Origin: an uncultured virus (IMG/VR IMGVR_UViG_3300048065_001102)
Lineage: Duplodnaviria; Heunggongvirae; Uroviricota; Caudoviricetes
Virus record (IMG/VR): IMGVR_UViG_3300048065_001102
Direction: 5' to 3' (one strand)
DNA length: 64,000 bases
Below, one piece after another: positions 2,703 to 24,825 of the stretch; position 1 is the first letter of the stretch, and each line of letters opens with the position of its first letter. The position numbers were made by a program, and so were the translations under genes. A model generated the notes under the pieces. That model was given only the letters and a program-made list of their open reading frames with translations. It did not search any database and had not been told where the DNA came from.

Positions 2703-2885
2703 TTAACACTCTCCGTCACACCAACATTTAAATATCCTAAAATAATAAAGAATATCTTCGTCTGATAAAAGTCTACTCTTTTTTGTCCAATGATAATCAT
2801 GCTTACACCTAAAATGTTGCCTTGTAATATTACAATAAGTTGTTGTACCGGTTTTATTAAACCCTATAAAAAATATTTTACTCAT
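2703..2885 (-). pseudogene. truncated sulfotransferase (N-terminal PAPS-binding loop only)
   Basis: MSKIFFIGFNKTGTTT is a 5'-PSB loop; ORF stops after about 60 codons; ATGA overlap with upstream gene. Confidence 0.55.
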
Positions 2886-3514
2886 CTCCATTCCCCAAAT
2901 TCATAACCGAAATACTCAATATCTTTTCTGTATTTTTCCGCAACGATTTGCTTTGTTTCATCATCGTAGTATTCGGTATAGTGTTTGTGTTTGCCTTTGT
3001 TTTTATGTGGAAGTTTTTGTTTTGGAATTCCAATTTTGTCGCAGATTATATTAAAGTCTTCTTGGAGGTTTTCAAATCTTCCGATGAAATTGACTTCAAC
3101 TCCTAACTTATCGTCTTTTAATAGTGGGTACTGATCACAAATGTGCTGAGTATTTGCATCATTAAAAACTTTTTCGGGATTGGTATCTATTCTTCTAAGT
3201 TGCATACAAAAATCTTTGAACGAAACACCCCAATCACTTATATGTGAACCAAACTTCCATGAAGATACAGCTCTATCAAATGGATTTCTAACAAATCCAA
3301 ATGTAAAATAATTATCCAAGCAGAAAAATTTATCAAAGACCGAAATCACCCGTGAAGCATAATAAGAATTTGGATAAATAATCGTATTGTCAGATGCTTC
3401 TGAAAAAATTTTAGCATTTTTATATCTTTTAAATTCAACTACATTTTTTGTAGATAATATGGAAGTAGAACCTGTTTTTGGTACTCTTATAAATAAACCA
3501 TTTTTAAAATTCAT
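2882..3514 (-). CDS. sulfotransferase (Sulfotransfer_2-like)
   Basis: FIRVPKTGSTS (5'-PSB), FVRNPFDRAVS (3'-PB), IGRFENLQEDF and conserved HYTEYYD..KDIEYFGY tail. Confidence 0.85.
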   Translation of the reverse strand: MNFKNGLFIRVPKTGSTSILSTKNVVEFKRYKNAKIFSEASDNTIIYPNSYYASRVISVFDKFFCLDNYFTFGFVRNPFDRAVSSWKFGSHISDWGVSFKDFCMQLRRIDTNPEKVFNDANTQHICDQYPLLKDDKLGVEVNFIGRFENLQEDFNIICDKIGIPKQKLPHKNKGKHKHYTEYYDDETKQIVAEKYRKDIEYFGYEFGEWR

Positions 3515-3535
3515 TTTATGTTTTCCTCAAACTAT

Positions 3536-3545
3536 TATAAATATC
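3536..3545 (-). promoter_or_regulatory. recurrent intergenic motif GATATTTATA (putative phage late promoter)
   Basis: Same motif found upstream of at least 11 gene starts; followed here by GAGG SD and ATG at 3514. Confidence 0.5.
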
Positions 3546-3561
3546 ACTTAATAATCTTAAC

Positions 3562-4143
3562 TTATTCTCCAAACTTATAATTAAAATACTCAATGTCTTT
3601 TGCGTATTTTTCCGCAACGATTTGTTTTGTTTCATCATCGTAGTATTCGGTGTAGTGTTTATGATTTGATTTGTTTTTATGTGGAAGTTTTTTGCATGGA
3701 AGTTTTAGTTTATTATTCATCGTATCAAAATCTTCTTGCAATGACTCTAATCTCAGAACATAATTTACTGACATATTTATATCATATAAATGAAAATGTA
3801 TTGGTTGAGAATGCCATCGTTGCATTCTTCCCATATTTTTATAACTCAGTTTACAAAATTCATTAAATGTTTCTAATTTTTTAAACGATTTGTGCTTCCA
3901 TATAGAAACCATTCTTTCAAATGGATTTCTTACAGTAGAAAATACTATCGGGTTTTTAAATTTTTTTGCATCAATTACATTTTTGAGTTGGTTAATTGCT
4001 TTTTTATCAAAACTACACTTTGCAGACATATCATTTCCCCAATAACCAAGTTGTTTTCCACCGAATGAATGGATGTTTTCTAAACAACTGAGTGAGGTTG
4101 ATCCTGTTCGTGGCATTCTTAAATATACCAAATCAAAATTCAT
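3562..4143 (-). CDS. sulfotransferase (Sulfotransfer_2-like)
   Basis: YLRMPRTGSTS, VRNPFERMVS, conserved C-terminal tail. Confidence 0.85.
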   Translation of the reverse strand: MNFDLVYLRMPRTGSTSLSCLENIHSFGGKQLGYWGNDMSAKCSFDKKAINQLKNVIDAKKFKNPIVFSTVRNPFERMVSIWKHKSFKKLETFNEFCKLSYKNMGRMQRWHSQPIHFHLYDINMSVNYVLRLESLQEDFDTMNNKLKLPCKKLPHKNKSNHKHYTEYYDDETKQIVAEKYAKDIEYFNYKFGE

Positions 4144-4768
4144 TTCTCATTCCCCCAAATTCATAACCGAAATACTCAATGTCCTTTGCATATTTTTCTG
4201 CAACAATTTCCCGTGTCTCGTCATCGTAATATTCAGTATAGTGTTTGTGTTTCGTTTTATTTGTGTGTGGAAGTTCTTGTTGTGGAATTCCGATTTTGTC
4301 ACAGACGATGTTGAAGTCTTCTTGGAGGTTTTCAAAACGACCTACGAAATCAATAGTATATTTCTTAGAAATGAACCAACTAGAAAAATCACCATCACGA
4401 CCTCTTCGCTTTGCATTGACATCAGCTGCCCTAATGGTGGGAAAACGAAATGCCCGGTGAGTAATCCATTCTCTGAAACTATTTTTGGCAAACTTCTTAT
4501 GTGATTTGCGCCATTTTTCTGACCAATTATTATCTCTAGTCCATAAAAAATTGTACATCGAAACGGTCATATCCCACGGATTTCTCACAAAAGTAAACTT
4601 AAAGTATTTATCGTACCTTGGGTTGTTCATTTCTTCGTATTTACTAAGTGTGTGATGTTTATTTCTTACATCTCTCTTAGACGCATTATTTTTAAATACA
4701 CATTCTATGCTAGTGCCACCCGTTTTGGGAATATGAACAAAAATAAATTTATGTTTATCACTTATCAT
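4133..4768 (-). CDS. sulfotransferase (Sulfotransfer_2-like)
   Basis: FVHIPKTGGTS, FVRNPWDMTVS, conserved tail; near-duplicate of 4758-5390. Confidence 0.9.
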   Translation of the reverse strand: MISDKHKFIFVHIPKTGGTSIECVFKNNASKRDVRNKHHTLSKYEEMNNPRYDKYFKFTFVRNPWDMTVSMYNFLWTRDNNWSEKWRKSHKKFAKNSFREWITHRAFRFPTIRAADVNAKRRGRDGDFSSWFISKKYTIDFVGRFENLQEDFNIVCDKIGIPQQELPHTNKTKHKHYTEYYDDETREIVAEKYAKDIEYFGYEFGGMRNEF

Positions 4769-5305
4769 CTCTCATTCCCCCAAATTCATAACCGAAATAC
4801 TCAATGTCCTTTGCATATTTTTCTGCAACAATTTCCCTTGTCTCGTCATCGTAATATTCAGTATAGTGTTTGTGTTTCGTTTTATTTGTGTGTGGAAGTT
4901 CTTGTTGTGGAATTCCGATTTTGTCACAGACGATGTTGAAGTCTTCTTGGAGGTTTTCAAAACGACCTACGAAATCAATAGTATATTTCTTAGAAATGAA
5001 CCAACTAGAAAAATCACCATCACGACCTCTTCGCCTTGCATTGACATCGGTTGTCCTAATAGTTGGCCAACGAAATGAACGATGAGTAATCCATTCTCTA
5101 AAACTTAGTTTGAAAAGATTCTTATGCCCTCTGCGCCATTGCTCTAACCACCGACCATCTTTGTGCCACATATATTCGTACATCGAAACGGTCATATCCC
5201 ACGGATTTCTCACAAAAGTAAACTTAAAGTATTTATCGTACCTTGGGTTGTTCAGTTCTTCGTATTTACTAAGTGTGTGATGTTTATTTCTTAGATGTCT
5301 CTTAG
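4145..5305. repeat. 625-bp-period tandem gene duplication
   Basis: 4145-4423 vs 4770-5048 and 4553-4680 vs 5178-5305 are nearly identical. Confidence 0.9.
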
Positions 5306-5390
5306 AAGTGTTAAATGCACATTCTATACTGGTACCACCCGTTTTGGGAATATGAACAAAAATAAATTTGTGCTTTCTACTTATCATCAA
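4758..5390 (-). CDS. sulfotransferase (Sulfotransfer_2-like)
   Basis: FVHIPKTGGTS, FVRNPWDMTVS, conserved tail. Confidence 0.9.
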   Translation of the reverse strand: MMISRKHKFIFVHIPKTGGTSIECAFNTSKRHLRNKHHTLSKYEELNNPRYDKYFKFTFVRNPWDMTVSMYEYMWHKDGRWLEQWRRGHKNLFKLSFREWITHRSFRWPTIRTTDVNARRRGRDGDFSSWFISKKYTIDFVGRFENLQEDFNIVCDKIGIPQQELPHTNKTKHKHYTEYYDDETREIVAEKYAKDIEYFGYEFGGMRDDK

Positions 5391-5968
5391 TTTTCTCCAA
5401 ATGTATAATTAAAATAATTTATATCGACTTCATAGTGTTTCTCTACCATTTCACGTGTTTCGTCATCGTAATATTCCCAATAAGGTTTGTGATCTGTTTT
5501 AAATTTATGTGGTAACATACTATCTTTAATTTCAAGTTTATCACATATTTGTGTAAAATCTTCTTGCAAATTCTCGAATTTTCCAATGAAATCCAGTTCA
5601 TTTATTGGGTGAAGGAAATAAAAGTAGTGCATTCGGTGTTGCTTCTGACCTAGATTTCCATTTAAAAATAAAGGAACAAAATGCTTAAATGTAGGTGCGT
5701 GTTTACGATAAAATAATTTTACACCAGGACGTGGATATTTGTAAGTAGAGTTCGTGAACCAAAAATATTCAGATACAAGTTTATCCCAAGGATTTCTTAC
5801 AAACGAAAACTTAAAATAAGATTCACAATCCTTCTCATTCTTATATTGTTGCAGTTGTTGATGTGCATCGTAATTTCCTTCACCCACAAATCCAAGATGC
5901 TTCTCAATGCTCGTTCCTGCACATTTTGGAATGTGTATAAAAATGCATTTATGTTCGTGACTTATCAT
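5387..5968 (-). CDS. sulfotransferase (Sulfotransfer_2-like)
   Basis: FIHIPKCAGTS, FVRNPWDKLVS, FIGKFENLQEDF. Confidence 0.9.
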   Translation of the reverse strand: MISHEHKCIFIHIPKCAGTSIEKHLGFVGEGNYDAHQQLQQYKNEKDCESYFKFSFVRNPWDKLVSEYFWFTNSTYKYPRPGVKLFYRKHAPTFKHFVPLFLNGNLGQKQHRMHYFYFLHPINELDFIGKFENLQEDFTQICDKLEIKDSMLPHKFKTDHKPYWEYYDDETREMVEKHYEVDINYFNYTFGEN

Positions 5969-5971
5969 TTA

Positions 5972-6562
5972 TTATTTTCCAAATTTGTATTCAAATATTT
6001 CAATATCTTTTGCATATTTGTCTGCAATTATTTTTTGAGTTGCTTCATCATAAAACTCTGTATAATGCTTGTACACAGATTTATTTTTGTTAGGAAAGTG
6101 ACCCATTGAAATTCCTATACATTTGCACATTGAATTTAAATCATCAATCAAATTTTCTGTTTTTCCTATGAAGTCAAAATTTTTAATATCAGCAACATAC
6201 GAACATAAACTAAAAGGTAGTTGTGATCGTCTATTATTTTTTTCATTCCACATTTGTTCACCAACAAACAAATTAAAATCATCATTTACATACCATCCAG
6301 GTTTAGACCCATTATCTCTTCGTTTTTTAAGATACGAATGCATGGAAACTACTCTTGCCCAAGGATTGCGTACAAATGTAAACTTAAAGTAATCATCAAT
6401 ATTATCAATCCTTCCTTCAAAGTCTTCGAGACGAGAGTGGGTAAACAAACCAATAGACTTATTAGGTTTTGATTTCATTTTATTTTTCATCCACAATGCC
6501 ATGCTACTACCTGCACATTTTGGAATGTGAATAAAAATACATTTTTGTGTATGACTTATCAT
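5972..6562 (-). CDS. sulfotransferase (Sulfotransfer_2-like)
   Basis: FIHIPKCAGSS, FVRNPWARVVS, FIGKTENL. Confidence 0.9.
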   Translation of the reverse strand: MISHTQKCIFIHIPKCAGSSMALWMKNKMKSKPNKSIGLFTHSRLEDFEGRIDNIDDYFKFTFVRNPWARVVSMHSYLKKRRDNGSKPGWYVNDDFNLFVGEQMWNEKNNRRSQLPFSLCSYVADIKNFDFIGKTENLIDDLNSMCKCIGISMGHFPNKNKSVYKHYTEFYDEATQKIIADKYAKDIEIFEYKFGK

Positions 6563-11628: not shown

Positions 11629-11996
11629 AAAACGGGGCAAAATCCAGTTTTTGTTTTTTTCATATTTAGTTCTTCTGAATAAATATGCATCAAAATCGCA
11701 CATCTATGTTGTCCATCTCGTATAAGCAGTCTTGAAAATCTTTTATCAAGTTGGATATCATTTTTTGAATCAAAGTTCCATCCTTTGTTTTTTATTTCAT
11801 TATACAAGTTAATAAAATGTGTATATGGAATTGTACACCTCGTTCCACGTGTGCGTCTCCATGTTTTTATGTAATTATTGTATATGTCTTTATTTTCACG
11901 GAGCAATGATAAATAGCAATAACTTTGAGATAATGACTTTGTTTCAAATATCTCTCCATTCCACATTTTTACATTAAAATTTTTTATCGGAATCAT
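11625..11996 (-). CDS. ParB/Srx-like fold protein
   Basis: LYNEIKNKGW...LLIRDGQHRCAIL (DGxHR motif). Confidence 0.6.
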   Translation of the reverse strand: MIPIKNFNVKMWNGEIFETKSLSQSYCYLSLLRENKDIYNNYIKTWRRTRGTRCTIPYTHFINLYNEIKNKGWNFDSKNDIQLDKRFSRLLIRDGQHRCAILMHIYSEELNMKKTKTGFCPVL

Positions 11997-12045: not shown

Positions 12046-12600
12046 TTATTCTCCAAATTTATACCCGAAATACTCAATATCTTTTGCATACTTTTCCGCA
12101 ACGATTTGCTTCGTTTCTTCATCGTAGTATTCAGTGTAGTGTTTGTGTTTGCTTTTGTTTTTATGTGCAAGTTGTTGGTGTGGAACACCGATTCTTTCAC
12201 AGATGATATTAAAGTCTTCTTGAAGATTTTCAAATCTTCCTATGAAATCAATAATTAATTCACCGGTTTCATCGGAAATCCAACTAAGTTGTGTGTGCTT
12301 TGCATTACAACCATCAAACTTATTTTTCACAACCCAATCCTTAAAGGAAATTGATGTTGATTTTCCCCTTCTCTTTCTGAAAAAATAATTAGAAACTAAC
12401 CTATCCCAAGGATTTCTGACAATTGTAAATTTGAAATAATTTTCAAATCCGTGCTCAGTGTTTGCAAGATTACGATATTCTATTATATTATAATGTTTGT
12501 TTCCGTGGTGTTTACCTATTTTTCTGAGTTTTGCTTCAACACTTGTACCACCTGTTTTATTAATGTGGACAAAGATATATTTACGTGTGTGACTTATCAT
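12046..12600 (-). CDS. sulfotransferase (Sulfotransfer_2-like)
   Basis: FVHINKTGGTS, VRNPWDRLVS, conserved tail. Confidence 0.9.
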   Translation of the reverse strand: MISHTRKYIFVHINKTGGTSVEAKLRKIGKHHGNKHYNIIEYRNLANTEHGFENYFKFTIVRNPWDRLVSNYFFRKRRGKSTSISFKDWVVKNKFDGCNAKHTQLSWISDETGELIIDFIGRFENLQEDFNIICERIGVPHQQLAHKNKSKHKHYTEYYDEETKQIVAEKYAKDIEYFGYKFGE

Positions 12601-12603
12601 TTA

Positions 12604-13248
12604 CTATTTTCCAAATTTGTACCCGAAATACTCAACATCTTTTGCATACTTTTCCGCAACGATTTGCTTCGTTTCTTCATCATAGTACTCGGTGTAGTGT
12701 TTGTGTTTTGTGGCATTTTTATGTGAAAGTTGTTGTTTTGGAATTCCAATTTTATCGCAGATTATATTAAAGTCTTCTTGGAGATTTTCAAATTTTCCAA
12801 TGAAGTCTACTGTTTTATTTTCAGTTTTATCTTCCACCCAAAAATGTTGTCCTAAATTTTGATGGTCAACCTCATTTAGTTTATGTGGGTACTTTTTAAC
12901 AAAATCATGAAATGTCATTTCACTTATTTCAGTTGCAATTTTTTTCTTACGATTATGACCACGACCAGTTCTCTTTGACCATTCATACATACCATGCCAC
13001 CATAAAAACGAAGATACTACAATATCCCACGGATTTCTTACAAAGCAAAATTTAAAATAGTTATCAATGCAATTTTTATTTAAATTCTTACTCGGTTGAT
13101 GTCTTGTTGAAATCGTTGTATCACGTGTATAAAAATTAGATACATGACCTTTATGATAAAAACCATTATTTGATAAACAATTTCTTATACTAAGACCTGC
13201 TGTTTTTGGTATATGAATAAAAATTGCTTTGAGGTCATGATTGTACAT
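12604..13248 (-). CDS. sulfotransferase (Sulfotransfer_2-like)
   Basis: FIHIPKTAGLS, FVRNPWDIVVS, conserved tail; likely start MYNHDLK. Confidence 0.9.
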   Translation of the reverse strand: MYNHDLKAIFIHIPKTAGLSIRNCLSNNGFYHKGHVSNFYTRDTTISTRHQPSKNLNKNCIDNYFKFCFVRNPWDIVVSSFLWWHGMYEWSKRTGRGHNRKKKIATEISEMTFHDFVKKYPHKLNEVDHQNLGQHFWVEDKTENKTVDFIGKFENLQEDFNIICDKIGIPKQQLSHKNATKHKHYTEYYDEETKQIVAEKYAKDVEYFGYKFGK

Positions 13249-13258
13249 AAATAAAGAC

Positions 13259-13612
13259 CTATTTTTTTTGAACAGCCCAGTCATTTCCAGACGAACGAAA
13301 TGCAATTTTGAGATTATTTGCTTTTACAAACTCATCAACTGCTTTTTTTATACCATATCTTTTTAAACGGTTCTCTCTGTAATCATTTTTTGACATAATA
13401 CTAACACCGAGGTTAGCAATTTCAGACATTACTTTACTTTCATAGTTTGGATTGAACGAAGGTAGCCAGGGATCTATTAAAAAAATTTTTTTAGGACTTG
13501 ATATATCCATCATGCTAATTGCGTGTTCTCCACTTGCAACACCAATCTCCGCAATTATCCCATTTTTAGGTAATTTTTCTAAAAATTTTTTTCTTGGTAC
13601 AGAATTTCTCAT
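13259..13612 (-). CDS. class I SAM methyltransferase-like, apparently internally deleted
   Basis: IAEIGVASGEHA, LIDPW and DY...YGIKKAVDEF present; the central DxxxIDxxH segment is missing. Confidence 0.55.
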   Translation of the reverse strand: MRNSVPRKKFLEKLPKNGIIAEIGVASGEHAISMMDISSPKKIFLIDPWLPSFNPNYESKVMSEIANLGVSIMSKNDYRENRLKRYGIKKAVDEFVKANNLKIAFRSSGNDWAVQKK

Positions 13613-14287
13613 TTAATTTTCTCCATACTTATATCCAAGAACTTCAATGTCGTTCTTATAAAATTTATTTACTATCACGATAGTTTCATCATCGTAGAAT
13701 TCAGTATAATGTGGACGATTCTTTGCATTATGTTTGTGAGGTAAAATTATATCTTTATCAACACCCAACTTTCCACATAATTTTTCTAGGTCTTCTCTGA
13801 GGTTTTCATAACGTCCTACAAAATCCACCAAAATCTTATCTGTTTTTTCATCGTAAATTTCATCAAATGCCTTTGTCAGTACAACTGCACGATCACGATG
13901 CCCAAGTTGAGGAACACCACGAATGACTTTGCGTGGATTTTCCAACCAATTCAACCAACCATCGTATCTCCACTTTGTCCATTCTTTAAAATCTCGTTTG
14001 GCAACATCATGTTCTCCTTTTGCTATTCTCCATTGATACTGAGATACCAAACGATCCCACGGATTTCTAACAAAGGCAAATGTAAGGTATTCATTCCAAA
14101 CATCCATACCAAACATTTTTTGTGCTTGCTCTACACTAAAATGAATCTTTTTTGATTCTTTTGGATCTCTTTTTGTTTTTTCAAATCGTTCACCGTCCTT
14201 TTTGCGTTGACTCAATGCAGTAGAAATACTAGAACCTGCTGTTCTTGGAATGTGAATGAATATACATTTTAAATCGTGTTCAATCAT
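13613..14287 (-). CDS. sulfotransferase (Sulfotransfer_2-like)
   Basis: FIHIPRTAGSS, FVRNPWDRLVS, FVGRYENL. Confidence 0.9.
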   Translation of the reverse strand: MIEHDLKCIFIHIPRTAGSSISTALSQRKKDGERFEKTKRDPKESKKIHFSVEQAQKMFGMDVWNEYLTFAFVRNPWDRLVSQYQWRIAKGEHDVAKRDFKEWTKWRYDGWLNWLENPRKVIRGVPQLGHRDRAVVLTKAFDEIYDEKTDKILVDFVGRYENLREDLEKLCGKLGVDKDIILPHKHNAKNRPHYTEFYDDETIVIVNKFYKNDIEVLGYKYGEN

Positions 14288-15906: not shown

Positions 15907-15929
15907 TATCTATCTCCATAAATTATTTA

Positions 15930-16658
15930 TTATAAGTATTTAGAATATTTCTTTTTAATCTCACACAGGCAGTTGTGAAGCATATAAGTTTGAATTGTTT
16001 TATTTTTTAACATTGATGTATATTTATCAAATAATTTTTTATCTTCAATCAAACATTTTGTTTGTATCTTGGGTTTTTTGTACAGATAATTATCATTTTT
16101 TACATCAACTCCACACTCATAAAAAATGCTTTGGGTTGAATTGTGTATAAAATTAAATTGATCAATTATTACTAGTTTTGCACATTTTACATTTTTTATG
16201 AGTTCTATTAAATAAATTATATTATTTTCAAATTCACAAACACACTCCTGATATGTAAAATTTCTGTTTTCCCAACTTTTCATGTGTTTAAATTCATCAA
16301 ATGTAACATTCGCATATTCTTCCGATTCACCTTTTCTCATTTCATACCAACTTTTTAAAAGTTGATTGAATTCACGGATACACACTAAAACCAAAGTTTG
16401 CTTTCCATATTTCTTTATACGATTTACAACTTTATCCAATGCATTTTTATTAAAAATCCATCCAGGAGTCTTACAAAATTTATATTTCCAACCACGTGGA
16501 CTTATTCTAAACATTGCTCCGTAGGCTTCATTTGGAATTTTTGGTGTTTTTTCCACAACAGTAAAATTACTATTGTTAAAAAATTCAGCAATATGCATAG
16601 TTGCACATTTAGGTCCTCCGACAACAACCACATTTTTATATGGCAAGTCTTGTTTCAT
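15930..16658 (-). CDS. divergent sulfotransferase-like protein
   Basis: VVVGGPKCAT (PSB-like loop), KTPGW, CIRE...SWY resemble the Sulfotransfer_1 layout. Confidence 0.55.
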   Translation of the reverse strand: MKQDLPYKNVVVVGGPKCATMHIAEFFNNSNFTVVEKTPKIPNEAYGAMFRISPRGWKYKFCKTPGWIFNKNALDKVVNRIKKYGKQTLVLVCIREFNQLLKSWYEMRKGESEEYANVTFDEFKHMKSWENRNFTYQECVCEFENNIIYLIELIKNVKCAKLVIIDQFNFIHNSTQSIFYECGVDVKNDNYLYKKPKIQTKCLIEDKKLFDKYTSMLKNKTIQTYMLHNCLCEIKKKYSKYL

Positions 16659-17620
16659 TTTTCTTCCTTGCGTTTTCTGCGACCTTCACCTCTTGGTTTT
16701 CTACGACCTCTTCTTGCTCGTTTTTCTGCACGATATGCCTCGGTTAAAGGTCCTGGTTTCATTTCTACGATTTCCTTTGGTACAACCATGCCCTCTGGTA
16801 CATCTCCTTTCCACATATCATGACGAAGCATATTCCACACTTTGCGTTGATGATAATCAAAGTCTTGAAGTCCGTTTGCAGTCATTTCGTCAATGTTGCT
16901 CCAACCCACTGTACAATTAAAGTGAACAATAAATGCATCTTTCTCTGCTCGTTCACGACCACGATTCTTGATGTTACGTTCCCAATGAACTCCTTGAGGA
17001 TATCCATTTGCACTAAGTTGAACATAATTTATATCATCAGGTTCAATAGCACGATGAAGACGTAGATTAAGAAGCATCATATCTTCTTTGAATTTACGTT
17101 GCTTGATTTCTCCATCTTCGTGAGTCTCTATGTAACCTCGTTTAAAATCTTCACGATCAATGTTAAACAAATGAATTGTTTTAGTGTTACTTTTAGCATA
17201 AAAGAAACCAGGACAAATACTTGCACCACCTGCAACTTGAAATGCTACATCATAATTTCCTTCTTCGCAAATTTTTTCAAGGTCTGACAATGGATTTTTT
17301 AGAAAGTTGATGTCGGTGTCAGCATAAAGAACATTGTATCCTTGTGTAAGCAACTGATGGGTTGCTTCCATTTTGTTCCACATCAAAGCATCCCATCCTT
17401 TTTGGTGAAACTCTGAAGTGGTTTCTATATGAAAGTTCGGACTTATCCATCGCACACTTTCAATGTCTTTTTCTTCGGACATACGTTCAAATGATTCGTC
17501 ATCCAAGCAATACATGATAACCATGTTTTGCATATTCAATGCACGAATATACTTTAACCAATTTAAAGCAAAGTCTAAATAACCACCATTTACATAACTT
17601 AGTAATTTTGTTTCTATCAC
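16655..17620 (-). CDS. GT77-like nucleotide-diphospho-sugar transferase
   Basis: YLDFALNW, YCLD, GYNVLYADTDINFLKNP, CPGFFY, YPQG, VHFNCTVG; GTG start with AGGAG SD. Confidence 0.8.
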   Translation of the reverse strand: MIETKLLSYVNGGYLDFALNWLKYIRALNMQNMVIMYCLDDESFERMSEEKDIESVRWISPNFHIETTSEFHQKGWDALMWNKMEATHQLLTQGYNVLYADTDINFLKNPLSDLEKICEEGNYDVAFQVAGGASICPGFFYAKSNTKTIHLFNIDREDFKRGYIETHEDGEIKQRKFKEDMMLLNLRLHRAIEPDDINYVQLSANGYPQGVHWERNIKNRGRERAEKDAFIVHFNCTVGWSNIDEMTANGLQDFDYHQRKVWNMLRHDMWKGDVPEGMVVPKEIVEMKPGPLTEAYRAEKRARRGRRKPRGEGRRKRKEEK

Positions 17621-17632
17621 ACCAATCTCCTT

Positions 17633-19534
17633 TTATTTTTTAATCAAACTAAAATAATCCTTGCATTTGTCGTTATCGTGCAATGGAAGCAATGTAAACA
17701 ACAAACTATTTGTTATAGTAACTATATTTTTCATTGTATTTTCGCAGAAATTGTTATCAATAAACAAAGTGAAATCATCAATCAGTTCTGTTCGGTAAGT
17801 ATCTGATATTGTTTTGTTTTGCATTACTTCATCATATCCAATCAATGACTGATAAATTTTGGCATAATCATAAAATATATCACCATAAATTGAAGTTTGA
17901 TTTCCGAGTGTTCCTCTTGGATCAATTAGTTTTATGTTTCCTATTTTGTCCATTAAAACATTAGAAAACACAGGGTCACCGTGTATTATACCAAATTGAC
18001 CTTGCTTAGTTGATTCGTAATTTGTAAGTTCTTTTTCAAGTTTTTTGTAAATTCTATCAGCATTTTTATAGTCAGAATAATCATAAGAAGCATATCGTTT
18101 TTTCAACTTATTTGTATAATTTTCATAAATATCAATGTTTGTATTTTTGCTTTTATGTGAGTGAATTTGTTTTATTGTATTTAATAGTTTTTTCAATCCA
18201 TCTGTATTGAGACTTTCCGACAAAAACAATTCTTGAAATGTAAGTCCTTGAATTCGTTCAATGCAATACTCTGAGTATTTTTTATCATCATAAGAAATTA
18301 AACTTGGTGCAACATTATACAATTTTCTTGGTAAATTAAGATACCATTCAATTTCACCTTTAAGTTTATTTACATTTTCTGATTTTTTTGTGATCACAGG
18401 TATCGTATCATCTTCAAGTGAATTGAAATCTCGTTCGTCTATTGAAAAATTATTTACTCCAAGTTCTTGTTGGTAATCATCAAATGCATTGATAACTAAA
18501 TCATCAATATATGCGTGTGCATATGGTTTTCCGAAATACAATTCGTCATATGGAATTTCAAAGTTTTCTAAAGTATCAATTGTAATCTTACCCACATCAG
18601 CAGTTATTTTTCCTACATTGCCATTGTGAGTTTTCATTCTTCTTGCAGTATAAATTATAATCGTACACCCAAGTTTTTTAAGAAATCTTGCAAACTCTAT
18701 ATTTTCTGATATAGGTTCAACTGATGTGTAATCCGATGGAATTCTAGGATAAGTAACTAATGTGTTATCAAAGTCAAAGCAGATACGATACTTCTTAAAG
18801 TAATCAAGATTTTTGTTTTGCATAAATTTGTTTTGAAACAACTTATACTGAAATGGAGTTCCCACTACATCAAAATCACTTTCGTTTATTACGTTTGCTA
18901 CAAACTTCTTTTTGTCGTTCATCATTTCTGATATAACACGACTCATATAAAACTCATTACCAAAACGCAAATCGTCATCAATTATTTTTTTGCAGTATTT
19001 ACGCAACTCACTCAATTTAGCAAATGCATAACATCCTGTATTTGCGAATTCAGTTATTCTGTTTTTCTCGGCAATTTTATTGATGATTTTATTTTCATTA
19101 AATCCAACATAAGAATAAACAGGACGATCATCACTTTGTTGAAAGCAAAACACCATATTCTTTTGCTTGCTCATACGATACAAAGCAAGAATATCAATAC
19201 CATAAAAAGTATCACCGTCAAGCAAAATCGTATTTTTATCGTTCTGAATGTTTTGTGTGCCAATGTAAATTGTTTCGGCAGCTCCATGTGTGTCAGTATC
19301 CAAATAGATTATATTGTAATCCGGATACTTCTTTTTGACCTCATCCTCAAAACGATATTTTTTTAAAGACTTGTTGCATATTAAATATACATTATCTTGT
19401 TTACCTACACTCAGATTATCAAGCAACCAAAAAATAATTGGTTTAAAAAACAAACGAATAATTGGTTTTGGTAAACGATAACCGAACTCAGAAAATCTTT
19501 TACCAAGCCCTCCTAGCGGAATAATTATATTCAC
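17633..19534 (-). CDS. trifunctional nucleotidyltransferase / HAD phosphatase / APH-choline-kinase-like protein
   Basis: IIPLGGLGKRF..PKP (NTP transferase); ICFDFDNTL, YTARRM, FGKP, YIDD (EcbF/BcbF-type HAD); IHGDPVFSN, IDPRG, YDYAK (kinase). Confidence 0.85.
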   Translation of the reverse strand: MNIIIPLGGLGKRFSEFGYRLPKPIIRLFFKPIIFWLLDNLSVGKQDNVYLICNKSLKKYRFEDEVKKKYPDYNIIYLDTDTHGAAETIYIGTQNIQNDKNTILLDGDTFYGIDILALYRMSKQKNMVFCFQQSDDRPVYSYVGFNENKIINKIAEKNRITEFANTGCYAFAKLSELRKYCKKIIDDDLRFGNEFYMSRVISEMMNDKKKFVANVINESDFDVVGTPFQYKLFQNKFMQNKNLDYFKKYRICFDFDNTLVTYPRIPSDYTSVEPISENIEFARFLKKLGCTIIIYTARRMKTHNGNVGKITADVGKITIDTLENFEIPYDELYFGKPYAHAYIDDLVINAFDDYQQELGVNNFSIDERDFNSLEDDTIPVITKKSENVNKLKGEIEWYLNLPRKLYNVAPSLISYDDKKYSEYCIERIQGLTFQELFLSESLNTDGLKKLLNTIKQIHSHKSKNTNIDIYENYTNKLKKRYASYDYSDYKNADRIYKKLEKELTNYESTKQGQFGIIHGDPVFSNVLMDKIGNIKLIDPRGTLGNQTSIYGDIFYDYAKIYQSLIGYDEVMQNKTISDTYRTELIDDFTLFIDNNFCENTMKNIVTITNSLLFTLLPLHDNDKCKDYFSLIKK

Positions 19535-19557
19535 TCATTATCTCCATCTTTCTGTTT

Positions 19558-20583
19558 TTATACACCTGCTTCTTTAGAATAATTCAAACTTGCGTCTTGT
19601 TTTCCTTCTTTGATCTCATTGTAAATCCAGGCATATGTTTTTTCCAAACCTTCTTGCAATCCAACACTTGGCTCCCAACCTGTGACTTCTTTGATTAAAG
19701 TGTTGTCAGAATTTCTTCCACGAACACCTTGAGGTTTTGTTAAATCGTATTTTCTATCAACTTCAATACCAGCAATTTTTTCAATCATATCAATAAGTTG
19801 ATTGATGCTGACCATTTCACTGCTTCCAAGATTCAATGGTTTAGTATAATCACTTTCCCACATTTTATCCATTCCTGTGATGCAGTCATCAATGTACATG
19901 AATGAACGAGTTTGTTCTCCGTCACCCCATACTTCAATTTCGTGATTTCCACTTAATTTTGCTTCAATGATTTTACGACACAACGCAGCCGGTGCTTTTT
20001 CACGACCACCTTGCCAAGTACCATAAGGACCATAAACATTGTGATAACGAGGAATGCGAACATTCATATCATAATCTGCTTCGTAAAAGTTGGTAAGAAT
20101 TTCGTTGAATAATTTTTCCCATCCATATCCACTTTCTGGATCAGCAGGATACGCATCAGGTTCTGCTAATGCTTGATCGGCTGCACTTTTAATCTCGGTT
20201 TGTTTGTAAGTAGGATATGCACAAGCACTACTACTATAAAGAAAGTCTTTGATACCATGCTCTTTAGCTGCTACAAGCATATGAACATTAATAAGAACAC
20301 TGAGCATACACAATGCGTGGTTGTTTTCAATGAAACCCATTCCACCCATATTACAAGCAAGATTGTATACCATGTCCATGCCTTCGGCTGCTTTCATGCA
20401 GTTTTCACGCAATTCAAGGTCAAGAACAAGTTGCTCTGTTCCTTCAACTGGTTGATACCACTGCTCTAGTGGTTTTTTGTCAACCACACGCACATTATGA
20501 CCTTGTTCTTGAAGGTCTTTTGCTAAATGTCCAGCGATGAATCCTCCACCACCACATACAAGTATATTTCTTTTATCTGCCAT
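19558..20583 (-). CDS. NAD-dependent epimerase, GDP-mannose 3,5-epimerase-like
   Basis: GGGGFIAG, LACNMGGMGFI, SSSACAYP, YGWEKL, GGREKAPAA, GVRGRNSDN are characteristic of GME-type extended SDRs. Confidence 0.9.
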   Translation of the reverse strand: MADKRNILVCGGGGFIAGHLAKDLQEQGHNVRVVDKKPLEQWYQPVEGTEQLVLDLELRENCMKAAEGMDMVYNLACNMGGMGFIENNHALCMLSVLINVHMLVAAKEHGIKDFLYSSSACAYPTYKQTEIKSAADQALAEPDAYPADPESGYGWEKLFNEILTNFYEADYDMNVRIPRYHNVYGPYGTWQGGREKAPAALCRKIIEAKLSGNHEIEVWGDGEQTRSFMYIDDCITGMDKMWESDYTKPLNLGSSEMVSINQLIDMIEKIAGIEVDRKYDLTKPQGVRGRNSDNTLIKEVTGWEPSVGLQEGLEKTYAWIYNEIKEGKQDASLNYSKEAGV

Positions 20584-20620
20584 GTATATAATTAGTTGTT
20601 ATAATAAGTTTTTGATATAG

Positions 20621-21217
20621 TTATTTCCCAAATTCATACCCGAAATACTCAATGTCTTTTGCGTATTTTTCCGCAACGATTTGTTTTGTTTCTTCATCGT
20701 AATATTCGGTATAGTGTTTGTGTTTTGTTTTATTTTTTATCGGTAAAATCAATTTTTCACAATTGCTTTTTTGCTCAATAAATCTCAATGTATCGTTTAT
20801 ATTTTCAAGTTTTCCTATGTGCTTTAAATAATTTGTTTTATTATTTTCATCACAAATCATATCAAACTGACACTTAAAGTGTTCTTGTTGGTAAATATTG
20901 AATTTATCAATTGAAGTTGTCATAAACTTCTTAAAAGAATAATTGTGCATTTGAGTGTTATTCCAAAAAACACTCGGACATCTTGTAGTGTATCTCCACG
21001 CGGATACTAATCTTTCCCAAGGATTTCTTACTATTGTAAAAAATGTATAATCATTGTTTGAATTTATATCTTTGTATAATTCATCTTTATTTTTGTATGA
21101 AATAGCATTATTTACTTTATGAAAAAAATGATGTATTTTGAATTTGATTTCATTTTTATCAAGACAATTAACCAACGAAGTCGATCCGGTTTTTGTTACT
21201 CTAACATAATATAACAT
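20621..21217 (-). CDS. sulfotransferase (Sulfotransfer_2-like)
   Basis: YVRVTKTGSTS, VRNPWERLVS, conserved tail. Confidence 0.85.
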   Translation of the reverse strand: MLYYVRVTKTGSTSLVNCLDKNEIKFKIHHFFHKVNNAISYKNKDELYKDINSNNDYTFFTIVRNPWERLVSAWRYTTRCPSVFWNNTQMHNYSFKKFMTTSIDKFNIYQQEHFKCQFDMICDENNKTNYLKHIGKLENINDTLRFIEQKSNCEKLILPIKNKTKHKHYTEYYDEETKQIVAEKYAKDIEYFGYEFGK

Positions 21218-21223
21218 TTAAAA

Positions 21224-21877
21224 TTATTTCCCAAATTCATATCCAAAATACTCAATATCTTTTGCGTATTTTTCCGCAACTATTTCACGGGTTTCATTAT
21301 CATAATATTCGGTATAGTGTTTGTGTTTTGTTGGATTTCTATGTGGTAATTTCAAATTTTTAAATCTAAGTTTTTTACAAATGTAATCAAAGTCAGTTTG
21401 CATATCCTCACACCTACCAATAAAATTAATCATTTTATATTTACTTGCATTTAAAACATAATCAATTTGCAAATCCTCATGTCCTGGATAAAAGTATGTT
21501 GAATGGTCTCCTTTAACAAAATCATTAAAAGTAGGAAATTTTTTTTTAAAATTAATAAGTCGTTCTTTTAAACCTCTTTTTTTATATGATTTTTGTAGAT
21601 AAAAATAAGAACTTAGAAATCGTTCATACGGATTTCTAATAAAAGTAAATGTAAAATATTTTTTTTCAGAATCATTTTTAAATTTGTCAATTTTTCTGTG
21701 CTGAGTGTATTCACCTTCATATTTGTACCATATTCTAAACTTTTCTTTTAAGTCTTTTGAAATTTTACCTGAGTCACGTGGATTAACTCCCTCGTTTTTA
21801 AGAAGTGCAAACTCAATACTTGTACCACCACATTTTGGTATATGTACAAAAATATATCTATGTGCATGACTTATCAA
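21224..21877 (-). CDS. sulfotransferase (Sulfotransfer_2-like)
   Basis: FVHIPKCGGTS, IRNPYERFLS, conserved tail; TTG start with GAGGG SD. Confidence 0.9.
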   Translation of the reverse strand: MISHAHRYIFVHIPKCGGTSIEFALLKNEGVNPRDSGKISKDLKEKFRIWYKYEGEYTQHRKIDKFKNDSEKKYFTFTFIRNPYERFLSSYFYLQKSYKKRGLKERLINFKKKFPTFNDFVKGDHSTYFYPGHEDLQIDYVLNASKYKMINFIGRCEDMQTDFDYICKKLRFKNLKLPHRNPTKHKHYTEYYDNETREIVAEKYAKDIEYFGYEFGK

Positions 21878-21880
21878 CCC

Positions 21881-22525
21881 TCAGTCTCCAAATTCATACC
21901 CAAAATACTCAATATCTTTTGCGTATTTTTCCGCAACGATTGAACGAGTTTCGTCATCGTAGTATTCGGTGTAGTGTTGATGTTTTGTTGGATTTCTATG
22001 TGGCAATTCAATTTTTGGTATTTTTAGTTTGCCACAAATATAATCAAAATCATATTGCATATCTTCACATCTTCCAACAAAGTTTGTAAGTTTTCCATGA
22101 TTTGAATTAAATACAAAATCTATTTGAGGAAAATTGTGTGCATAATAACAACATTTAATTCCATTGTTTTTTACAAAATGCTTAAACGTTGGATACTTTT
22201 TATTAAAATCTTCACAATTACATCCACCTACTTTTTTAATATAAAAATATTCACTTAAAAATCTTTCCCACGGATTTCTGACGAATGTAAACGTGAAATA
22301 TTTCTTTTCGTTTTCAGTTTTATATTGATCAATTTTACGATGTTGAACATCAACATTACCATATTTGTACCATAAACGAAATTTCTGTTGTTCATCGTGT
22401 GTAAGATTCCACTTCAATATTCGTTCTTCTGGTATACCCTCGTTTTTCAACAATGTTTGTTCCACACTCGTTCCACCACATTTCGGAATGTGAATAAAAA
22501 TAAATTTATGTTTATGACTTATCAT
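21881..22525 (-). CDS. sulfotransferase (Sulfotransfer_2-like)
   Basis: FIHIPKCGGTS, VRNPWERFLS; close paralogue of 21224-21877. Confidence 0.9.
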   Translation of the reverse strand: MISHKHKFIFIHIPKCGGTSVEQTLLKNEGIPEERILKWNLTHDEQQKFRLWYKYGNVDVQHRKIDQYKTENEKKYFTFTFVRNPWERFLSEYFYIKKVGGCNCEDFNKKYPTFKHFVKNNGIKCCYYAHNFPQIDFVFNSNHGKLTNFVGRCEDMQYDFDYICGKLKIPKIELPHRNPTKHQHYTEYYDDETRSIVAEKYAKDIEYFGYEFGD

Positions 22526-23298
22526 TCTGTGTCACTACATTCGGTGTTAAAATCTGTATTATGCATTTGCTCTCTTGGCAATACATTCAATGATTTAAGT
22601 CTTTGTATTGAATATTCGTCCTCCTTAATATTCTCCGGAATAAGTTCTGTGTGAATATACTCAGATGATGTCAATGTTCTTTCAAATCTTGCATTGTTGC
22701 AATACAAATACATTAATCCAATTTCTGTTTGAGGAAATGCAGTTTGCATCTTATTTATGAACTCGTTTAAATGTTCATCTTGGTTTGTGGAATGAACTCG
22801 TTTTAGTTGTCGTTTTTCATCTGCTCTGAAAAACAATATTTTGTTTTTGCTTTTTAATTGTGAGACAAGACGTTGTTGACGATTACCAAATACTCTTTTC
22901 ATATCTTCCCAAATTGGTTGAATATCAAGTTTGTCCGAAACTTTCCATTCATGTAGTTCATCTTTTGTCATTGTTTCTTTAAACCATACATCTGCAAAGT
23001 GAGGATAATAAACATTCGGTGTGTTTTTATGCCAAACGATTTTATTACGAATCTCGGTGCTTCTTGGTGCAATTTCGTTTTTGATTTCCCAATCATTTAT
23101 GTCATCAAAATAATTTGCGAATTCAGTGGACATCAAATCTGCGGTTTCTGTAAGTCCTTCAACTGTATCCATGTTATCAAATGGACTTGAATAATAACGA
23201 ACTTCTGCGGAACGTGATATTCCTAAAGTATTGCATTTGATGCCTAAATTAACGACAATGTTCCAGTCTATATCAAATATTTTTGATGAATCCCCCAT
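22522..23298 (-). CDS. DUF1796-like (putative papain-like cysteine peptidase) protein
   Basis: VNLGIKC...SSPFD...YPH...R..RL...ILFFR. Confidence 0.55.
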   Translation of the reverse strand: MGDSSKIFDIDWNIVVNLGIKCNTLGISRSAEVRYYSSPFDNMDTVEGLTETADLMSTEFANYFDDINDWEIKNEIAPRSTEIRNKIVWHKNTPNVYYPHFADVWFKETMTKDELHEWKVSDKLDIQPIWEDMKRVFGNRQQRLVSQLKSKNKILFFRADEKRQLKRVHSTNQDEHLNEFINKMQTAFPQTEIGLMYLYCNNARFERTLTSSEYIHTELIPENIKEDEYSIQRLKSLNVLPREQMHNTDFNTECSDTE

Positions 23299-23302
23299 GT
23301 AA

Positions 23303-23311
23303 TATAAATAT
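23303..23311 (-). promoter_or_regulatory. ATATTTATA motif (putative late promoter)
   Basis: 4 nt upstream of ATG 23298, no SD. Confidence 0.5.
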
Positions 23312-23314
23312 TAG

Positions 23315-24208
23315 TTAGTGAGTTTTTATAATACTTATGTTTTTATTAAAACACATTAAATATCCAATGTATCTTTCAATTGCGTGTTCTATCATACAAT
23401 CAGGTAAACCACGAAAACCATGCTCTAAAAGTTCAAAATAATTTTTGGCATTTTTACGTTGACGCATAATTCTTGATTTTCTTGTCATTGGTTGATTGTA
23501 AACATCATTTTTCATTCTGCGAAACTCTGAGTTGTAATAATCAGTATCGTCCATGATGTCGCACCAAAATTTATCGTTTTTATTTTTGTCTGATAATAAC
23601 TCGTAAATTTGATTAAAGTTATTTAACAGAACATCAAAAAATTTGCATTTTGAAACAAAAATCTTTCCTGAATTGTACTTCCATGTTTTCAGATTTTCAT
23701 GCGGAAACAAATGTTGATACATTTTTAATATCTGAAGATTTTTATCATTCTGCTCTATATCCACATACTTGAATTCAGAAATCATCGTGTCGCAATTTCC
23801 TTGCAACACATTGATGTTTCTTATATTAAGTAAATTGTTTCTCCATATATCGTTGCTCTTGGAATGTACACAAAATACGTAGTCGTATTGATTTTTAACA
23901 AAATTTAATCCGATTAAAAACGGACCAATGTCCCATCCTCTGTTTGGTACAATTATTGTTTTGTCACGATAAATACTTTTGTATTTTTCAATTAAATCAT
24001 TTGAACAAGTGCAACCAAATTCATAAATTTCATTTTCGTATTTTTTGTATGAAAAATTTCCATTGAAAATTTGCATTGAATTTAATGTCAATAATACATC
24101 AATTTCGTTTGCATAGATTTGCTTTATTTCATTTACCAAATTTTCATAATATGAAACTTGCTTCTCATCTAAATTTGATAATGAAAGAATTAAAATTATT
24201 TTACTCAT
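23315..24208 (-). CDS. RgpF-like (rhamnan synthesis F) glycosyltransferase
   Basis: VPNRGWDIGPFL, VHSKS, WR, EHAIER. Confidence 0.7.
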   Translation of the reverse strand: MSKIILILSLSNLDEKQVSYYENLVNEIKQIYANEIDVLLTLNSMQIFNGNFSYKKYENEIYEFGCTCSNDLIEKYKSIYRDKTIIVPNRGWDIGPFLIGLNFVKNQYDYVFCVHSKSNDIWRNNLLNIRNINVLQGNCDTMISEFKYVDIEQNDKNLQILKMYQHLFPHENLKTWKYNSGKIFVSKCKFFDVLLNNFNQIYELLSDKNKNDKFWCDIMDDTDYYNSEFRRMKNDVYNQPMTRKSRIMRQRKNAKNYFELLEHGFRGLPDCMIEHAIERYIGYLMCFNKNISIIKTH

Positions 24209-24825
24209 TCTCCAAATTTGTACCCGAAATACTCAATGTCCTTTGCATATTTTTCCGCAACGATTTGTTTCGTTGCATCGTCATAGTATTCGGTGTAGTG
24301 GTTGTGTTTTGTTGAATTTTTGTGTGGAAGTTTTTGCTGTGGAATTCCAATTTTATCACAAACGATGTTGAAGTCTTCTTGAAGGTTTTCAAGTTTGCCT
24401 ATAAAATTGACTGCAATAGTTCCATTAACCATATAGTATTTTTCATATGAGCTCGGAATAAATTTGTCTATGTTACCTATAAAATCATTAAATGAATTTA
24501 TATTTGCTATTTGTTTACAATAAGTGTCTTCGTGAAGTGCATCTCGTTCTAATAACCTTTTGTATCGTTTATTTAGGTAATGATAGAAAGAAACAGTATG
24601 ATCCCACGGATTTCTTACGAAAGCAAATTTAAAATAATCACTATAATTCCAATTCTGTGAAACAAAGTATTCATGTGTTTCTGTTGCAGTTTTGTGAAAA
24701 TAATAAGGAGAGGTTCTATCCTCCATTGGTAGTATTTCACAAAAAACCTCTAAACTGCTCGTTATAGTTGTCCCGGCAGTTTTAGGAATGTGCACAAATA
24801 TAAATTTATGTTTATGACTTATCAT
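24205..24825 (-). CDS. sulfotransferase (Sulfotransfer_2-like)
   Basis: FVHIPKTAGTT, FVRNPWDHTVS, conserved tail. Confidence 0.9.
   Translation of the reverse strand: MISHKHKFIFVHIPKTAGTTITSSLEVFCEILPMEDRTSPYYFHKTATETHEYFVSQNWNYSDYFKFAFVRNPWDHTVSFYHYLNKRYKRLLERDALHEDTYCKQIANINSFNDFIGNIDKFIPSSYEKYYMVNGTIAVNFIGKLENLQEDFNIVCDKIGIPQQKLPHKNSTKHNHYTEYYDDATKQIVAEKYAKDIEYFGYKFGE

What the first reader, a model, noticed from the sequence alone, without database searches (positions are those of the whole stretch)
2882..24825. Sulfotransferase paralogues have DNA-level constant ends and variable middles, like a recombining cassette array
Seen: ten paralogues (2882, 3562, 4133, 4758, 12046, 12604, 20621, 21224, 21881, 24205) end in nearly the same ~100 bp encoding HYTEYYD.ET..IVAEKYAKD.EYF.Y.FG, although their central regions barely align. 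Synonymous positions are shared too: GTT GCG GAA AA in eight copies and GAG TAT TT in all ten, GC-ending codons unexpected in so AT-rich a sequence. Eight paralogues also begin (A/T)TG ATA AGT. Inference: gene conversion or unequal crossover through these constant ends expands, contracts and reshuffles the array, and may move the GT genes lying between copies, generating new sulfation patterns without a dedicated recombinase.
Basis: partly seen in the sequence, partly recalled or inferred. Interest (0 to 1): 0.8.

Follow-up and report, generated by a model that had tools for sequence, protein, structure and literature searches.

The report
Shared gene tail shuffles phage cassettes
Many different large ocean phages end their sulfate-adding enzyme genes in nearly the same 100-base stretch of DNA, which appears to act as a common splice point through which they swap, gain and lose these genes and unrelated neighbours without a dedicated cut-and-paste enzyme.

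Summary
Confirmed and extended. The window, probably from a large marine phage, holds 13 Sulfotransfer_2 genes; ten share a 3' tail 75-99% identical in DNA. The tail is not special to this genome: 280 distinct copies lie in 264 fetched loci, on 182 different gene bodies, including in a T4-like phage whose RecA-like protein gives no BLAST match to those of four other carriers. Protein constraint does not explain it: synonymous excess is 0.24-0.32 in the tail, 0.03 in the catalytic motif and about 0 in untailed paralogues. Linkage decays within about 20 nt. Neighbours change behind tailed genes in 11 of 11 clusters, against 25 of 68 for other genes. Close relatives show body swaps bounded by the 5' motif and the tail. 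Fifteen bodiless tails follow unrelated genes, in any frame. Best reading: a PeSL-like recombination anchor hidden in coding sequence and shared across phage lineages. Many island indels do not use it. No integrase and no covarying hairpin were found. Chimeric assembly is not excluded for single contigs. The scan noted the same idea on other DNA (e1-7994017); two other earlier notes put the ends down to enzyme function, which my tests contradict for the tail.

The parts
2882..3514 (-). Sulfotransfer_2 gene; shared tail 2882-2983, similarity reaches about 107 nt further 5'
3562..4143 (-). Sulfotransfer_2 gene with divergent body; shared tail 3562-3657, similarity starts only about 32 nt further 5'
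4133..4768 (-). Sulfotransfer_2 gene, recent tandem duplicate of 4758; tail 4133-4243
4758..5390 (-). Sulfotransfer_2 gene, duplicate partner; 3' third nearly identical to that of 4133, divergent patches in the middle; tail 4758-4868
5387..5968 (-).
5916..5935 (-). 20-nt block in the 5' motif, identical to 6510-6529; crossover point of the 594-nt skip in a contig of run X9
5972..6562 (-).
12046..12600 (-). Sulfotransfer_2 gene; tail 12046-12141, 94% identical to its neighbour's; AlphaFold model pLDDT 93, sulfotransferase fold
12604..13305 (-). Sulfotransfer_2 gene (true start probably about 57 nt inside the ORF, inferred); tail 12604-12699
13613..14287 (-).
19558..20583 (-). NAD-dependent epimerase; fixed downstream anchor behind three different sulfotransferase bodies (window, L181, L182)
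20621..21217 (-). Sulfotransfer_2 gene with very divergent body; shared tail 20621-20716; match to L181 and L182 ends at 20735-20737
21224..21877 (-). Sulfotransfer_2 gene; tail 21224-21319; match to L181 resumes at 21848, in its 5' motif
21881..22525 (-). Sulfotransfer_2 gene; tail 21881-21976; orthologues in L181 (same context) and L170 (unrelated context)
24205..24825 (-). Sulfotransfer_2 gene; tail 24205-24300; a 79%-identical copy lies in an unrelated context in L204
203..30577 (-). Glycan-modification island holding the array: GT8, GT25, GT34, GT2, PLOD-GT, two Nucleotid_trans, GT6, NTP transferase, epimerase, two distant sulfotransferase-like genes (25687, 29070)

Best explanation
The last 100 nt or so of these sulfotransferase genes (up to about 220 nt in many copies) is a recombination anchor shared by a community of large marine phages. 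SHOWN: the tail is younger than the genes that carry it, is internally recombined, joins unrelated bodies, marks changes of neighbour, and occurs without a body behind unrelated genes. INFERRED: protein constraint first kept this C-terminal stretch alike. General homologous recombination (the carriers' RecA/UvsX-like protein or the host's) between tails of co-infecting phages, or of copies in one genome, then swaps, duplicates or deletes the DNA between two tails. A weaker second anchor in the 5' motif allows body-only swaps. A crossover in the tail always rebuilds a working C-terminus and hands its GGAG ribosome site and stop/start overlap to the next gene, so recombinants are viable. Repeated exchange keeps homogenising the tail. 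Illegitimate joins into a tail create bodiless tails that bracket other genes and make them movable. The outcome is turnover of the enzyme set for a sulfated glycan; the target of that glycan is not shown.
For: Codon test on protein-found loci only (61 tailed genes with unrelated bodies): synonymous excess over context-matched usage is 0.24 and 0.32 in the tail halves, 0.21 linker, 0.15 DFIG, 0.09 5' motif, 0.03 PB motif; 45 untailed genes give -0.04 to 0.00 everywhere (same pattern in 177 vs 101 genes). Linkage decays with distance inside the tail, permutation p 5e-4 in both sets. The downstream neighbour changes in 11 of 11 tailed clusters vs 2 of 8 untailed and 25 of 68 non-ST; the body changes in front of a shared neighbour in 9 of 11 vs 0 of 8 and 15 of 59 (Fisher p 7e-5 to 1e-3). 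L170/L197 share upstream gene, 5' motif, tail and downstream gene but have unrelated middles. Window vs L181: the replaced block is bounded by a 5' motif (21848) and a tail (20735). The X9 contig skips 594 nt through a 20-nt identity in the 5' motifs. L016 vs L024: synonymous identity 95 of 98 in the body, 21 of 30 in the tail. Fifteen bodiless tails lie behind non-ST genes, in frame, out of frame or past the stop; 13 of 15 have a full tail 1-3 genes upstream; 0 hits in reversed-sequence control. RecA-like gene in 5 of 5 carriers, integrase in 0 of 5. Tails 79-92% identical to the window's in a gp23-positive genome whose RecA-like protein has no blastp hit to the other four.
Against: Not the only route: 3 of 4 internal joints in the X9 contig, 3 of 4 differences between window and L181, and the loss of one gene behind the tail in L014/L018/L026 involve no second constant end. 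Non-ST clusters also change neighbours in 25 of 68. In 14 same-downstream pairs the tail was mostly no closer than random pairs (only 4 above the 88th percentile). The drop in identity over the last 100 nt of orthologue pairs is -5.8 for tailed genes but also -4.9 for non-ST genes. In the window, tail data do not reject the core tree (p-AU 0.097). Most alternative neighbours rest on one contig each. Bodiless tails could be passive deletion scars. No crossover was seen in raw reads: only contigs were available.
Confidence: 0.72

Rival explanations
1. Passive marker: the tail spread once by a sweep, island genes come and go by illegitimate recombination at gene junctions, and bodiless tails are deletion scars kept only because they carry the next gene's ribosome site.
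For: Frequent tail-independent indels. 'Empty' mini-genes joining the 5' motif to the tail (L092/L144, L175, L196). A 34-nt remnant also exists (G004). Only 3' parts are orphaned.
Against: Linkage decay inside the tail. Enrichment of neighbour change over non-ST controls. Swaps bounded at both sides by constant ends. All 15 remnants keep 50-170 nt, more than a ribosome site needs, and none of 211 tested tails had a longer mid-gene remnant.
Confidence: 0.12
2. The tail is a dedicated site (attC-like hairpin or recombinase binding site) used by an unidentified enzyme.
For: Window tails fold into a recurring imperfect hairpin with an inner TTGCG-N8-CGCAA repeat; mean folding z about -0.76 in 72 tails. 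Left edges of half-tails cluster in about 30 nt.
Against: No covariation: pairing observed 0.74/0.90/0.41/0.98 vs 0.71/0.92/0.39/0.97 expected from independence. Long-range r2 is at background and the alignment consensus fold is -0.66 kcal/mol. Left limits of similarity spread from about -135 to +15 nt. No PF00589 in 5 of 5 genomes. Serine and HUH recombinases were not searched.
Confidence: 0.07
3. Protein constraint plus codon bias alone; no special recombination.
For: The region is conserved family-wide (Y155, Y159, D174, I175, F178, Y180, F182 nearly invariant in 88 sequences) and forms confident helices. The window-only synonymous excess is similar in tail and PB motif.
Against: The catalytic motif is saturated while the tail is not. 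The same amino acid uses different fixed codons at different positions (first Ala GCG in 37 of 57, second Ala GCA in 47 of 57). Untailed members do without it. Tail DNA persists out of frame and beyond stops.
Confidence: 0.04
4. Concerted evolution confined to this array.
For: 4133/4758 tails 99%, 12046/12604 tails 94%, matched by at most 1 of 200 outside tails. Window-window 0.851 vs window-other 0.820.
Against: For 5 of 10 window tails the best match sits on an unrelated body in another contig. The same codons occur in distant phages.
Confidence: 0.03
5. The changed neighbours are chimeras made by assemblers at near-identical tails.
For: Contigs often end in tails. 10% of 1500 unrelated pairs share an exact run of 31 nt or more. 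Most alternative joints are single contigs.
Against: It cannot give the codon signal, linkage decay under 20 nt, or half-tails joined to unrelated genes. Only 0.1% of pairs share 55 nt or more. Two alternative neighbours recur in three records each. The window stretch is held at 87-99% of words in five runs (one may be its source).
Confidence: 0.04

Closest known systems
PeSL (promoter-early stem-loop) cassettes of T4-type phage hyperplastic regions (Arbiol et al. 2010, PMC2839356; abstract and section 16 read)
   Same: A repeat of about 100 bp flanks variable genes; general recombination between copies deletes, inserts or replaces them and tends to give viable recombinants; no integrase.
   Different: PeSLs are intergenic promoter-terminator elements. 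This anchor is protein-coding (the C-terminus of an enzyme), shows no promoter or terminator in the scan, supplies a ribosome site and stop/start overlap, and is shared by very distant phage lineages.
T4-superfamily gp38 adhesins: conserved glycine-rich motifs separating hypervariable segments (Trojet et al. 2011, PMC3157838; abstract read)
   Same: Conserved coding motifs bracket interchangeable variable segments.
   Different: There one gene per genome is mosaic. Here a multi-copy enzyme family exchanges whole bodies, and the anchor also brackets unrelated genes.
Relaxed homologous recombination producing phage mosaics (De Paepe et al. 2014, PMC3945230; abstract read)
   Same: Homology-driven exchange that tolerates divergence and leaves traces at mosaic borders.
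   Different: Shown for Rad52-like recombinases of temperate coliphages. The carriers tested here have RecA/UvsX-like genes, and one recurring anchor is used.
Integron cassette arrays (recalled, not read)
   Same: Gene plus 3' element in tandem arrays; unrelated cargo genes; empty units.
   Different: No tyrosine integrase in 5 of 5 carriers, no covarying hairpin, no fixed crossover point.
Sulfotransfer_2 (PF03567) / PHROG 3347 'galactose-3-O-sulfotransferase'
   Same: All 13 are members by HMM; sulfotransferase fold.
   Different: Short forms (184-233 aa) in arrays; acceptor unknown.

Membership tests
Sulfotransfer_2 (PF03567) | HMM score above the curated cut-off | tested here: met
   13 of 13 paralogues, 47.7-77.4 bits vs 22; PHROG 3347 E 9e-26 for 24205
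Sulfotransfer_2 (PF03567) | PAPS-binding motifs (5' PK/RxxxT/S, 3' RxPxxRxxS; motif names recalled) and sulfotransferase fold | tested here: met
   Motifs in the alignment; the second Arg is replaced in 4133, 4758, 12604 and 24205. Model of 12046 pLDDT 93; top Foldseek hits are sulfotransferases, best E 9e-4
Sulfotransfer_2 (PF03567) | PAPS-dependent sulfation of a carbohydrate | not testable with these tools
   needs an assay
PeSL cassette | About 100-bp conserved direct repeat flanking variable genes | tested here: met
PeSL cassette | Gain, loss or replacement of genes bounded by the repeats in close relatives | tested here: met
   (some, not all, events)
PeSL cassette | Intergenic sigma70-like promoter plus terminator stem-loop | tested here: not met
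   The element is coding; no promoter-like site inside the two tails scanned, 0 terminators in 11900-13400 (2 of 10 tails scanned)
PeSL cassette | Excised mini-circles | not testable with these tools
   only contigs were available
Integron (IntI/attC) | Tyrosine integrase in the replicon | tested here: not met
   PF00589 in 0 of 5 near-complete carriers; none among 46 window ORFs scanned; the window's own genome is not held
Integron (IntI/attC) | Structure-conserved, sequence-variable hairpin with covarying pairs | tested here: not met
Integron (IntI/attC) | Fixed crossover point | tested here: not met
   left limits of tail similarity spread over about 150 nt in 182 genes
Silent-cassette antigenic variation (vlsE/msp2 type; recalled) | One expression locus plus truncated silent donors | tested here: not met
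   200 of 211 testable tails scored as intact by the script, and 5 of the 11 flagged are long ORFs with sulfotransferase-like sequence; expression not tested

The most novel reading that the evidence does not exclude
The tail is a selected, cross-lineage 'cassette standard' of marine large phages: an integrase-free integron analogue written inside a coding sequence. T4-like and unrelated phages keep it because it gives access to a common pool of glycan-tailoring genes. Bodiless tails are retained because they make captured methyltransferases, hydrolases and glycosyltransferases mobile, perhaps as excised circles.
Probability: 0.3. Interest if true: 0.82.

Novelty: new variant of a known kind. 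Interest (0 to 1): 0.64.

Why it matters
It would identify a concrete, testable route of gene flow between very distant marine phage lineages, and explain how glycan-modification islands turn over without a dedicated recombinase. It extends PeSL-type shuffling from intergenic regulatory repeats to a coding anchor that guarantees viable, translationally coupled recombinants. In practice the tail is a ready-made primer or probe site for harvesting the cassette pool from seawater viromes, and a warning that metagenome assemblies break, or may mis-join, there.

Tried and rejected
No whole genome is held for the window, so its own recombinase genes could not be checked. A search for relatives with the ATPase 14290 found none. 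Hairpin or attC reading: single-sequence folds recur but there is no covariation; rejected as the main cause. Internal promoter or terminator: 12 promoter-like sites vs 8.3 +/- 3.1 in shuffles, none in the two tails scanned. Window-only synonymous identity and window-only segment trees (core data reject the tail tree, p-AU 3e-5; tail data do not reject the core tree, 0.097) were not decisive. The test that the tail travels with the downstream gene gave mixed results. The last-100-nt drop test did not separate tailed from non-ST genes. include loci fetched with tail DNA patterns, which biases codon counts; one search repeats the codon, identity and linkage tests on the 71 protein-found loci plus the window. 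The 7-of-10 vs 84-of-637 binomial test (p 6e-5) is affected by loci being centred on tails and was run before five further bodiless tails were added. Cultured or annotated phages hold only distant relatives (5 records, 28-33% aa). The tail pattern hit 3 contigs among 185,579 prokaryote genomes, all MAGs; I read these as probably phage contigs but did not test that. No orphan tail remnant exists in the window. A diversity-generating retroelement was considered and dropped (the tail is the conserved part; no reverse transcriptase among 46 ORFs scanned). Literature searches found no paper on this element; the library lacks most subscription papers, and no supplements were read.
Full report
SETTING. 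The window is AT-rich (about 0.3 GC), with nearly all long ORFs on the minus strand. Positions 203-30577 form a glycan-modification island (GT8, GT25, GT34, GT2, PLOD-GT, two Nucleotid_trans, GT6, NTP transferase, epimerase). The rest holds large Pro-Thr-repeat and LamG proteins and an HNH gene. The stretch 12000-21900 is held at 87-99% of sampled words in five seawater runs, one of which may be its source. No whole genome is held. That the source is a large phage is inferred from PHROG hits, GGAG sites with stop/start overlaps, and a syntenic relative on a 358,699-nt contig (L181).

THE OBSERVATION. Thirteen genes pass PF03567. Ten share the tail at 75-99% DNA identity; the variable regions are 14-15% identical in aa. 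The two codon strings are in 8 of 10 and 10 of 10 copies. The 5' string is in 6 of the 10 listed genes and 8 of 13. In some copies the shared DNA begins about 100-115 nt upstream of the HYTE codons, in others only 20-30 nt; among 182 genes this limit is bimodal.

NOT GENOME-SPECIFIC. They hold 408 tails (at least 22 of 30 residues), 280 distinct. The 210 with both flanks fall into 182 body clusters; unrelated pairs average 82% identity. In the unbiased subset (protein-found loci plus window, 61 genes), same-locus pairs average 0.83 (74 pairs) and others 0.81; window-window 0.851 vs window-other 0.820. For 5 of 10 window tails the best match is on an unrelated body elsewhere; the adjacent pairs 4133/4758 and 12046/12604 show local copying. 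Five near-complete carriers of 195-222 kb hold 1-8 matches each. One has T4 gp23, and its RecA-like protein gives no blastp hit to the other four, which are 42-77% identical among themselves. The tail thus crosses distant lineages.

PROTEIN CONSTRAINT IS NOT ENOUGH. For each column I compared the chance that two genes with the same residue use the same codon with that expected from neighbour-base-matched usage in non-ST genes. In 61 tailed genes the excess is 0.09 (5' motif), 0.03 (PB motif), 0.15 (DFIG), 0.21 (linker), 0.24 and 0.32 (tail halves); in 45 untailed genes it is -0.04 to 0.00. The larger, pattern-biased set gives 0.09, 0.04, 0.12, 0.30, 0.27, 0.38 against at most 0.07. Linkage between variable tail sites falls from 0.061 at 1-9 nt to about 0.02 beyond, near 1/n (permutation p 5e-4; likewise), as expected from repeated crossovers inside the tail. 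Part of the short-range signal comes from linked amino-acid pairs. On the window alone this contrast was not evident.

BREAKPOINTS. Among genes with the same body (at least 80%) and distinct 3' ends, the downstream neighbour differs in 11 of 11 tailed clusters, 2 of 8 untailed ST clusters and 25 of 68 non-ST clusters. In front of a shared neighbour the body differs in 9 of 11, 0 of 8 and 15 of 59 (Fisher p 7e-5 to 1e-3). L170 and L197 share upstream gene, 5' motif, tail and downstream gene (93%) around unrelated middles, and the L170 body is an orthologue of window gene 21881. L181 matches the window at 21848-23347 (84%) and 19538-20735 (91%); between these it has one unrelated sulfotransferase where the window has two. 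L182 puts a third body in front of the same epimerase. A contig of run X9, 95-98% identical to the window, skips 5916-6509, with 20 letters fitting either side; these are an exact repeat in the 5' motifs of 5387 and 5972. L016 and L024 share 95 of 98 synonymous codons in the body but 21 of 30 in the tail.

AGAINST OVER-READING. The same X9 contig has three further joints away from ST ends. Three of four differences from L181 are of that kind. L014/L018/L026 lost one gene behind the tail without a second tail. In 14 same-downstream pairs the tails were mostly no closer than random. The identity drop at gene ends was similar for non-ST genes. Tail data from the window do not reject the core tree. 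Most alternative neighbours are single contigs, contigs often break in tails, and 10% of unrelated pairs share 31 nt or more exactly; two alternatives recur in three records each.

BODILESS TAILS. A profile scan found 19 hits (14 distinct) for the 3' half without the 5' half, against 421 complete hits and 0 in reversed sequence. Nine distinct ones follow non-ST genes (the other five end divergent ST genes or have no host ORF called), and L133 has an internally deleted tail. Five further full tails lack a body (L151, L163, L193, L196, L205). They are in frame on a methyltransferase (L171; Methyltransf_23, E 1e-5, below cut-off) and on alpha/beta-hydrolases (L109, L139), out of frame (L017, L133, L166), or past the stop (L112, L176). 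L092/L144, L175 and L196 are 'empty' units joining the 5' motif to the tail. In 10 of 15 a full ST tail directly precedes the non-ST gene, in 3 more it lies 2-3 genes upstream, and 2 are near contig ends; loci were centred on tails, so this count is inflated. It does not prove that the remnants are selected rather than scars. The window itself has none.

NO DEDICATED SITE FOUND. Tails fold into a recurring imperfect hairpin (z about -0.76), but four candidate pairs are paired no more often than independence predicts and long-range linkage is at background. PF00589 is absent from 5 of 5 carriers, PF00154 present in 5 of 5. No promoter- or terminator-like site lies in the two tails scanned.

MECHANISM. 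Shown: a young, recombined, widely shared tail; enriched neighbour change; swaps bounded by constant ends; bodiless tails. Inferred: general homologous recombination as the engine; viability of recombinants because the crossover restores the C-terminal helices (residues 155-178 of the model) and passes on the ribosome site; feedback that keeps the commonest haplotype common; diversifying selection on a sulfated glycan. Since the exchanged unit includes both catalytic motifs, the data show reassortment of enzymes, not new chimeric specificities.

COMPARISON AND NOVELTY. It works like PeSL-mediated shuffling (PMC2839356: abstract and section 16 read; PMC4122927: search listing only) but fails the PeSL definition, being coding and without promoter or terminator. 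gp38 (PMC3157838, abstract) and relaxed recombination (PMC3945230, abstract) are partial parallels. It is not an integron by three tested features. PMC12619734 (passages) reports glycosyltransferases and islands in large aquatic phages and has no hit for 'sulfo'. Nine literature searches found no description of this element; supplements were not read. Earlier scan notes: e1-7994017 reached the same reading on another genome; e1-5354487 and e1-5363798 attributed the ends to enzyme function, which contradict for the tail and support for the PB motif. Verdict: new variant of a known kind; interest 0.64.

Noticed in passing
window 4133-5390: The tandem duplicates differ in dense, mostly amino-acid-changing patches after the PB motif while their 3' thirds are nearly identical; possibly a patch from a third allele or selection on acceptor binding.
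   Followed up: partly
window 12206-12233 and 12764-12791 (-): The same 9-of-12 sigma70-like match (TTGAAA-16-TAATAT) lies in the DFIG part of both 12046 and 12604; the total count is within chance.
   Followed up: no
window 2878-3033, 4147-4335, 4772-4960, 12033-12233, 12597-12749, 24201-24392 (-): A shifted reading frame stays open for 50-66 codons across six tails and some such ORFs run into the next gene; probably a by-product of the shared codons.
   Followed up: no
L196 minus strand near 3964: The 5' motif (SHKHK) and the tail start (KHKHY) share a microhomology through which the whole body appears deleted, leaving an empty unit.
   Followed up: partly
L139:3389-4060, L051:10610-11269, L008:7394-8092: One alpha/beta-hydrolase family carries tail-derived C-termini in three states (frameshifted, in frame, interrupted) and sits right behind a sulfotransferase gene in all three.
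   Followed up: partly
L277 (G004:71528-71561) and L176: Homologous cargo genes sit behind a 34-nt tail remnant in one phage and between a full tail and a half-tail in another.
   Followed up: partly
window 35859-62512: A run of large proteins with long Pro-Thr repeats, LamG domains and degenerate repeats; likely virion fibres and plausible glycan acceptors for the island (inference).
   Followed up: no
window 14290-15906: A GHKL-type ATPase inside the glycan island; no relative found in viral contigs, but a homologue is at the same place in L181.
   Followed up: partly
G002 (L275, L268, L271): Tail matches occur at three separate places and on both strands of one 222-kb genome, so inversions or long deletions through tails are possible.
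   Followed up: no
window 17443-18776: Runs X4, X6 and X9 carry a roughly 89%-identical allele of the NTP-transferase gene region, a sign of allele exchange outside the sulfotransferases.
   Followed up: no
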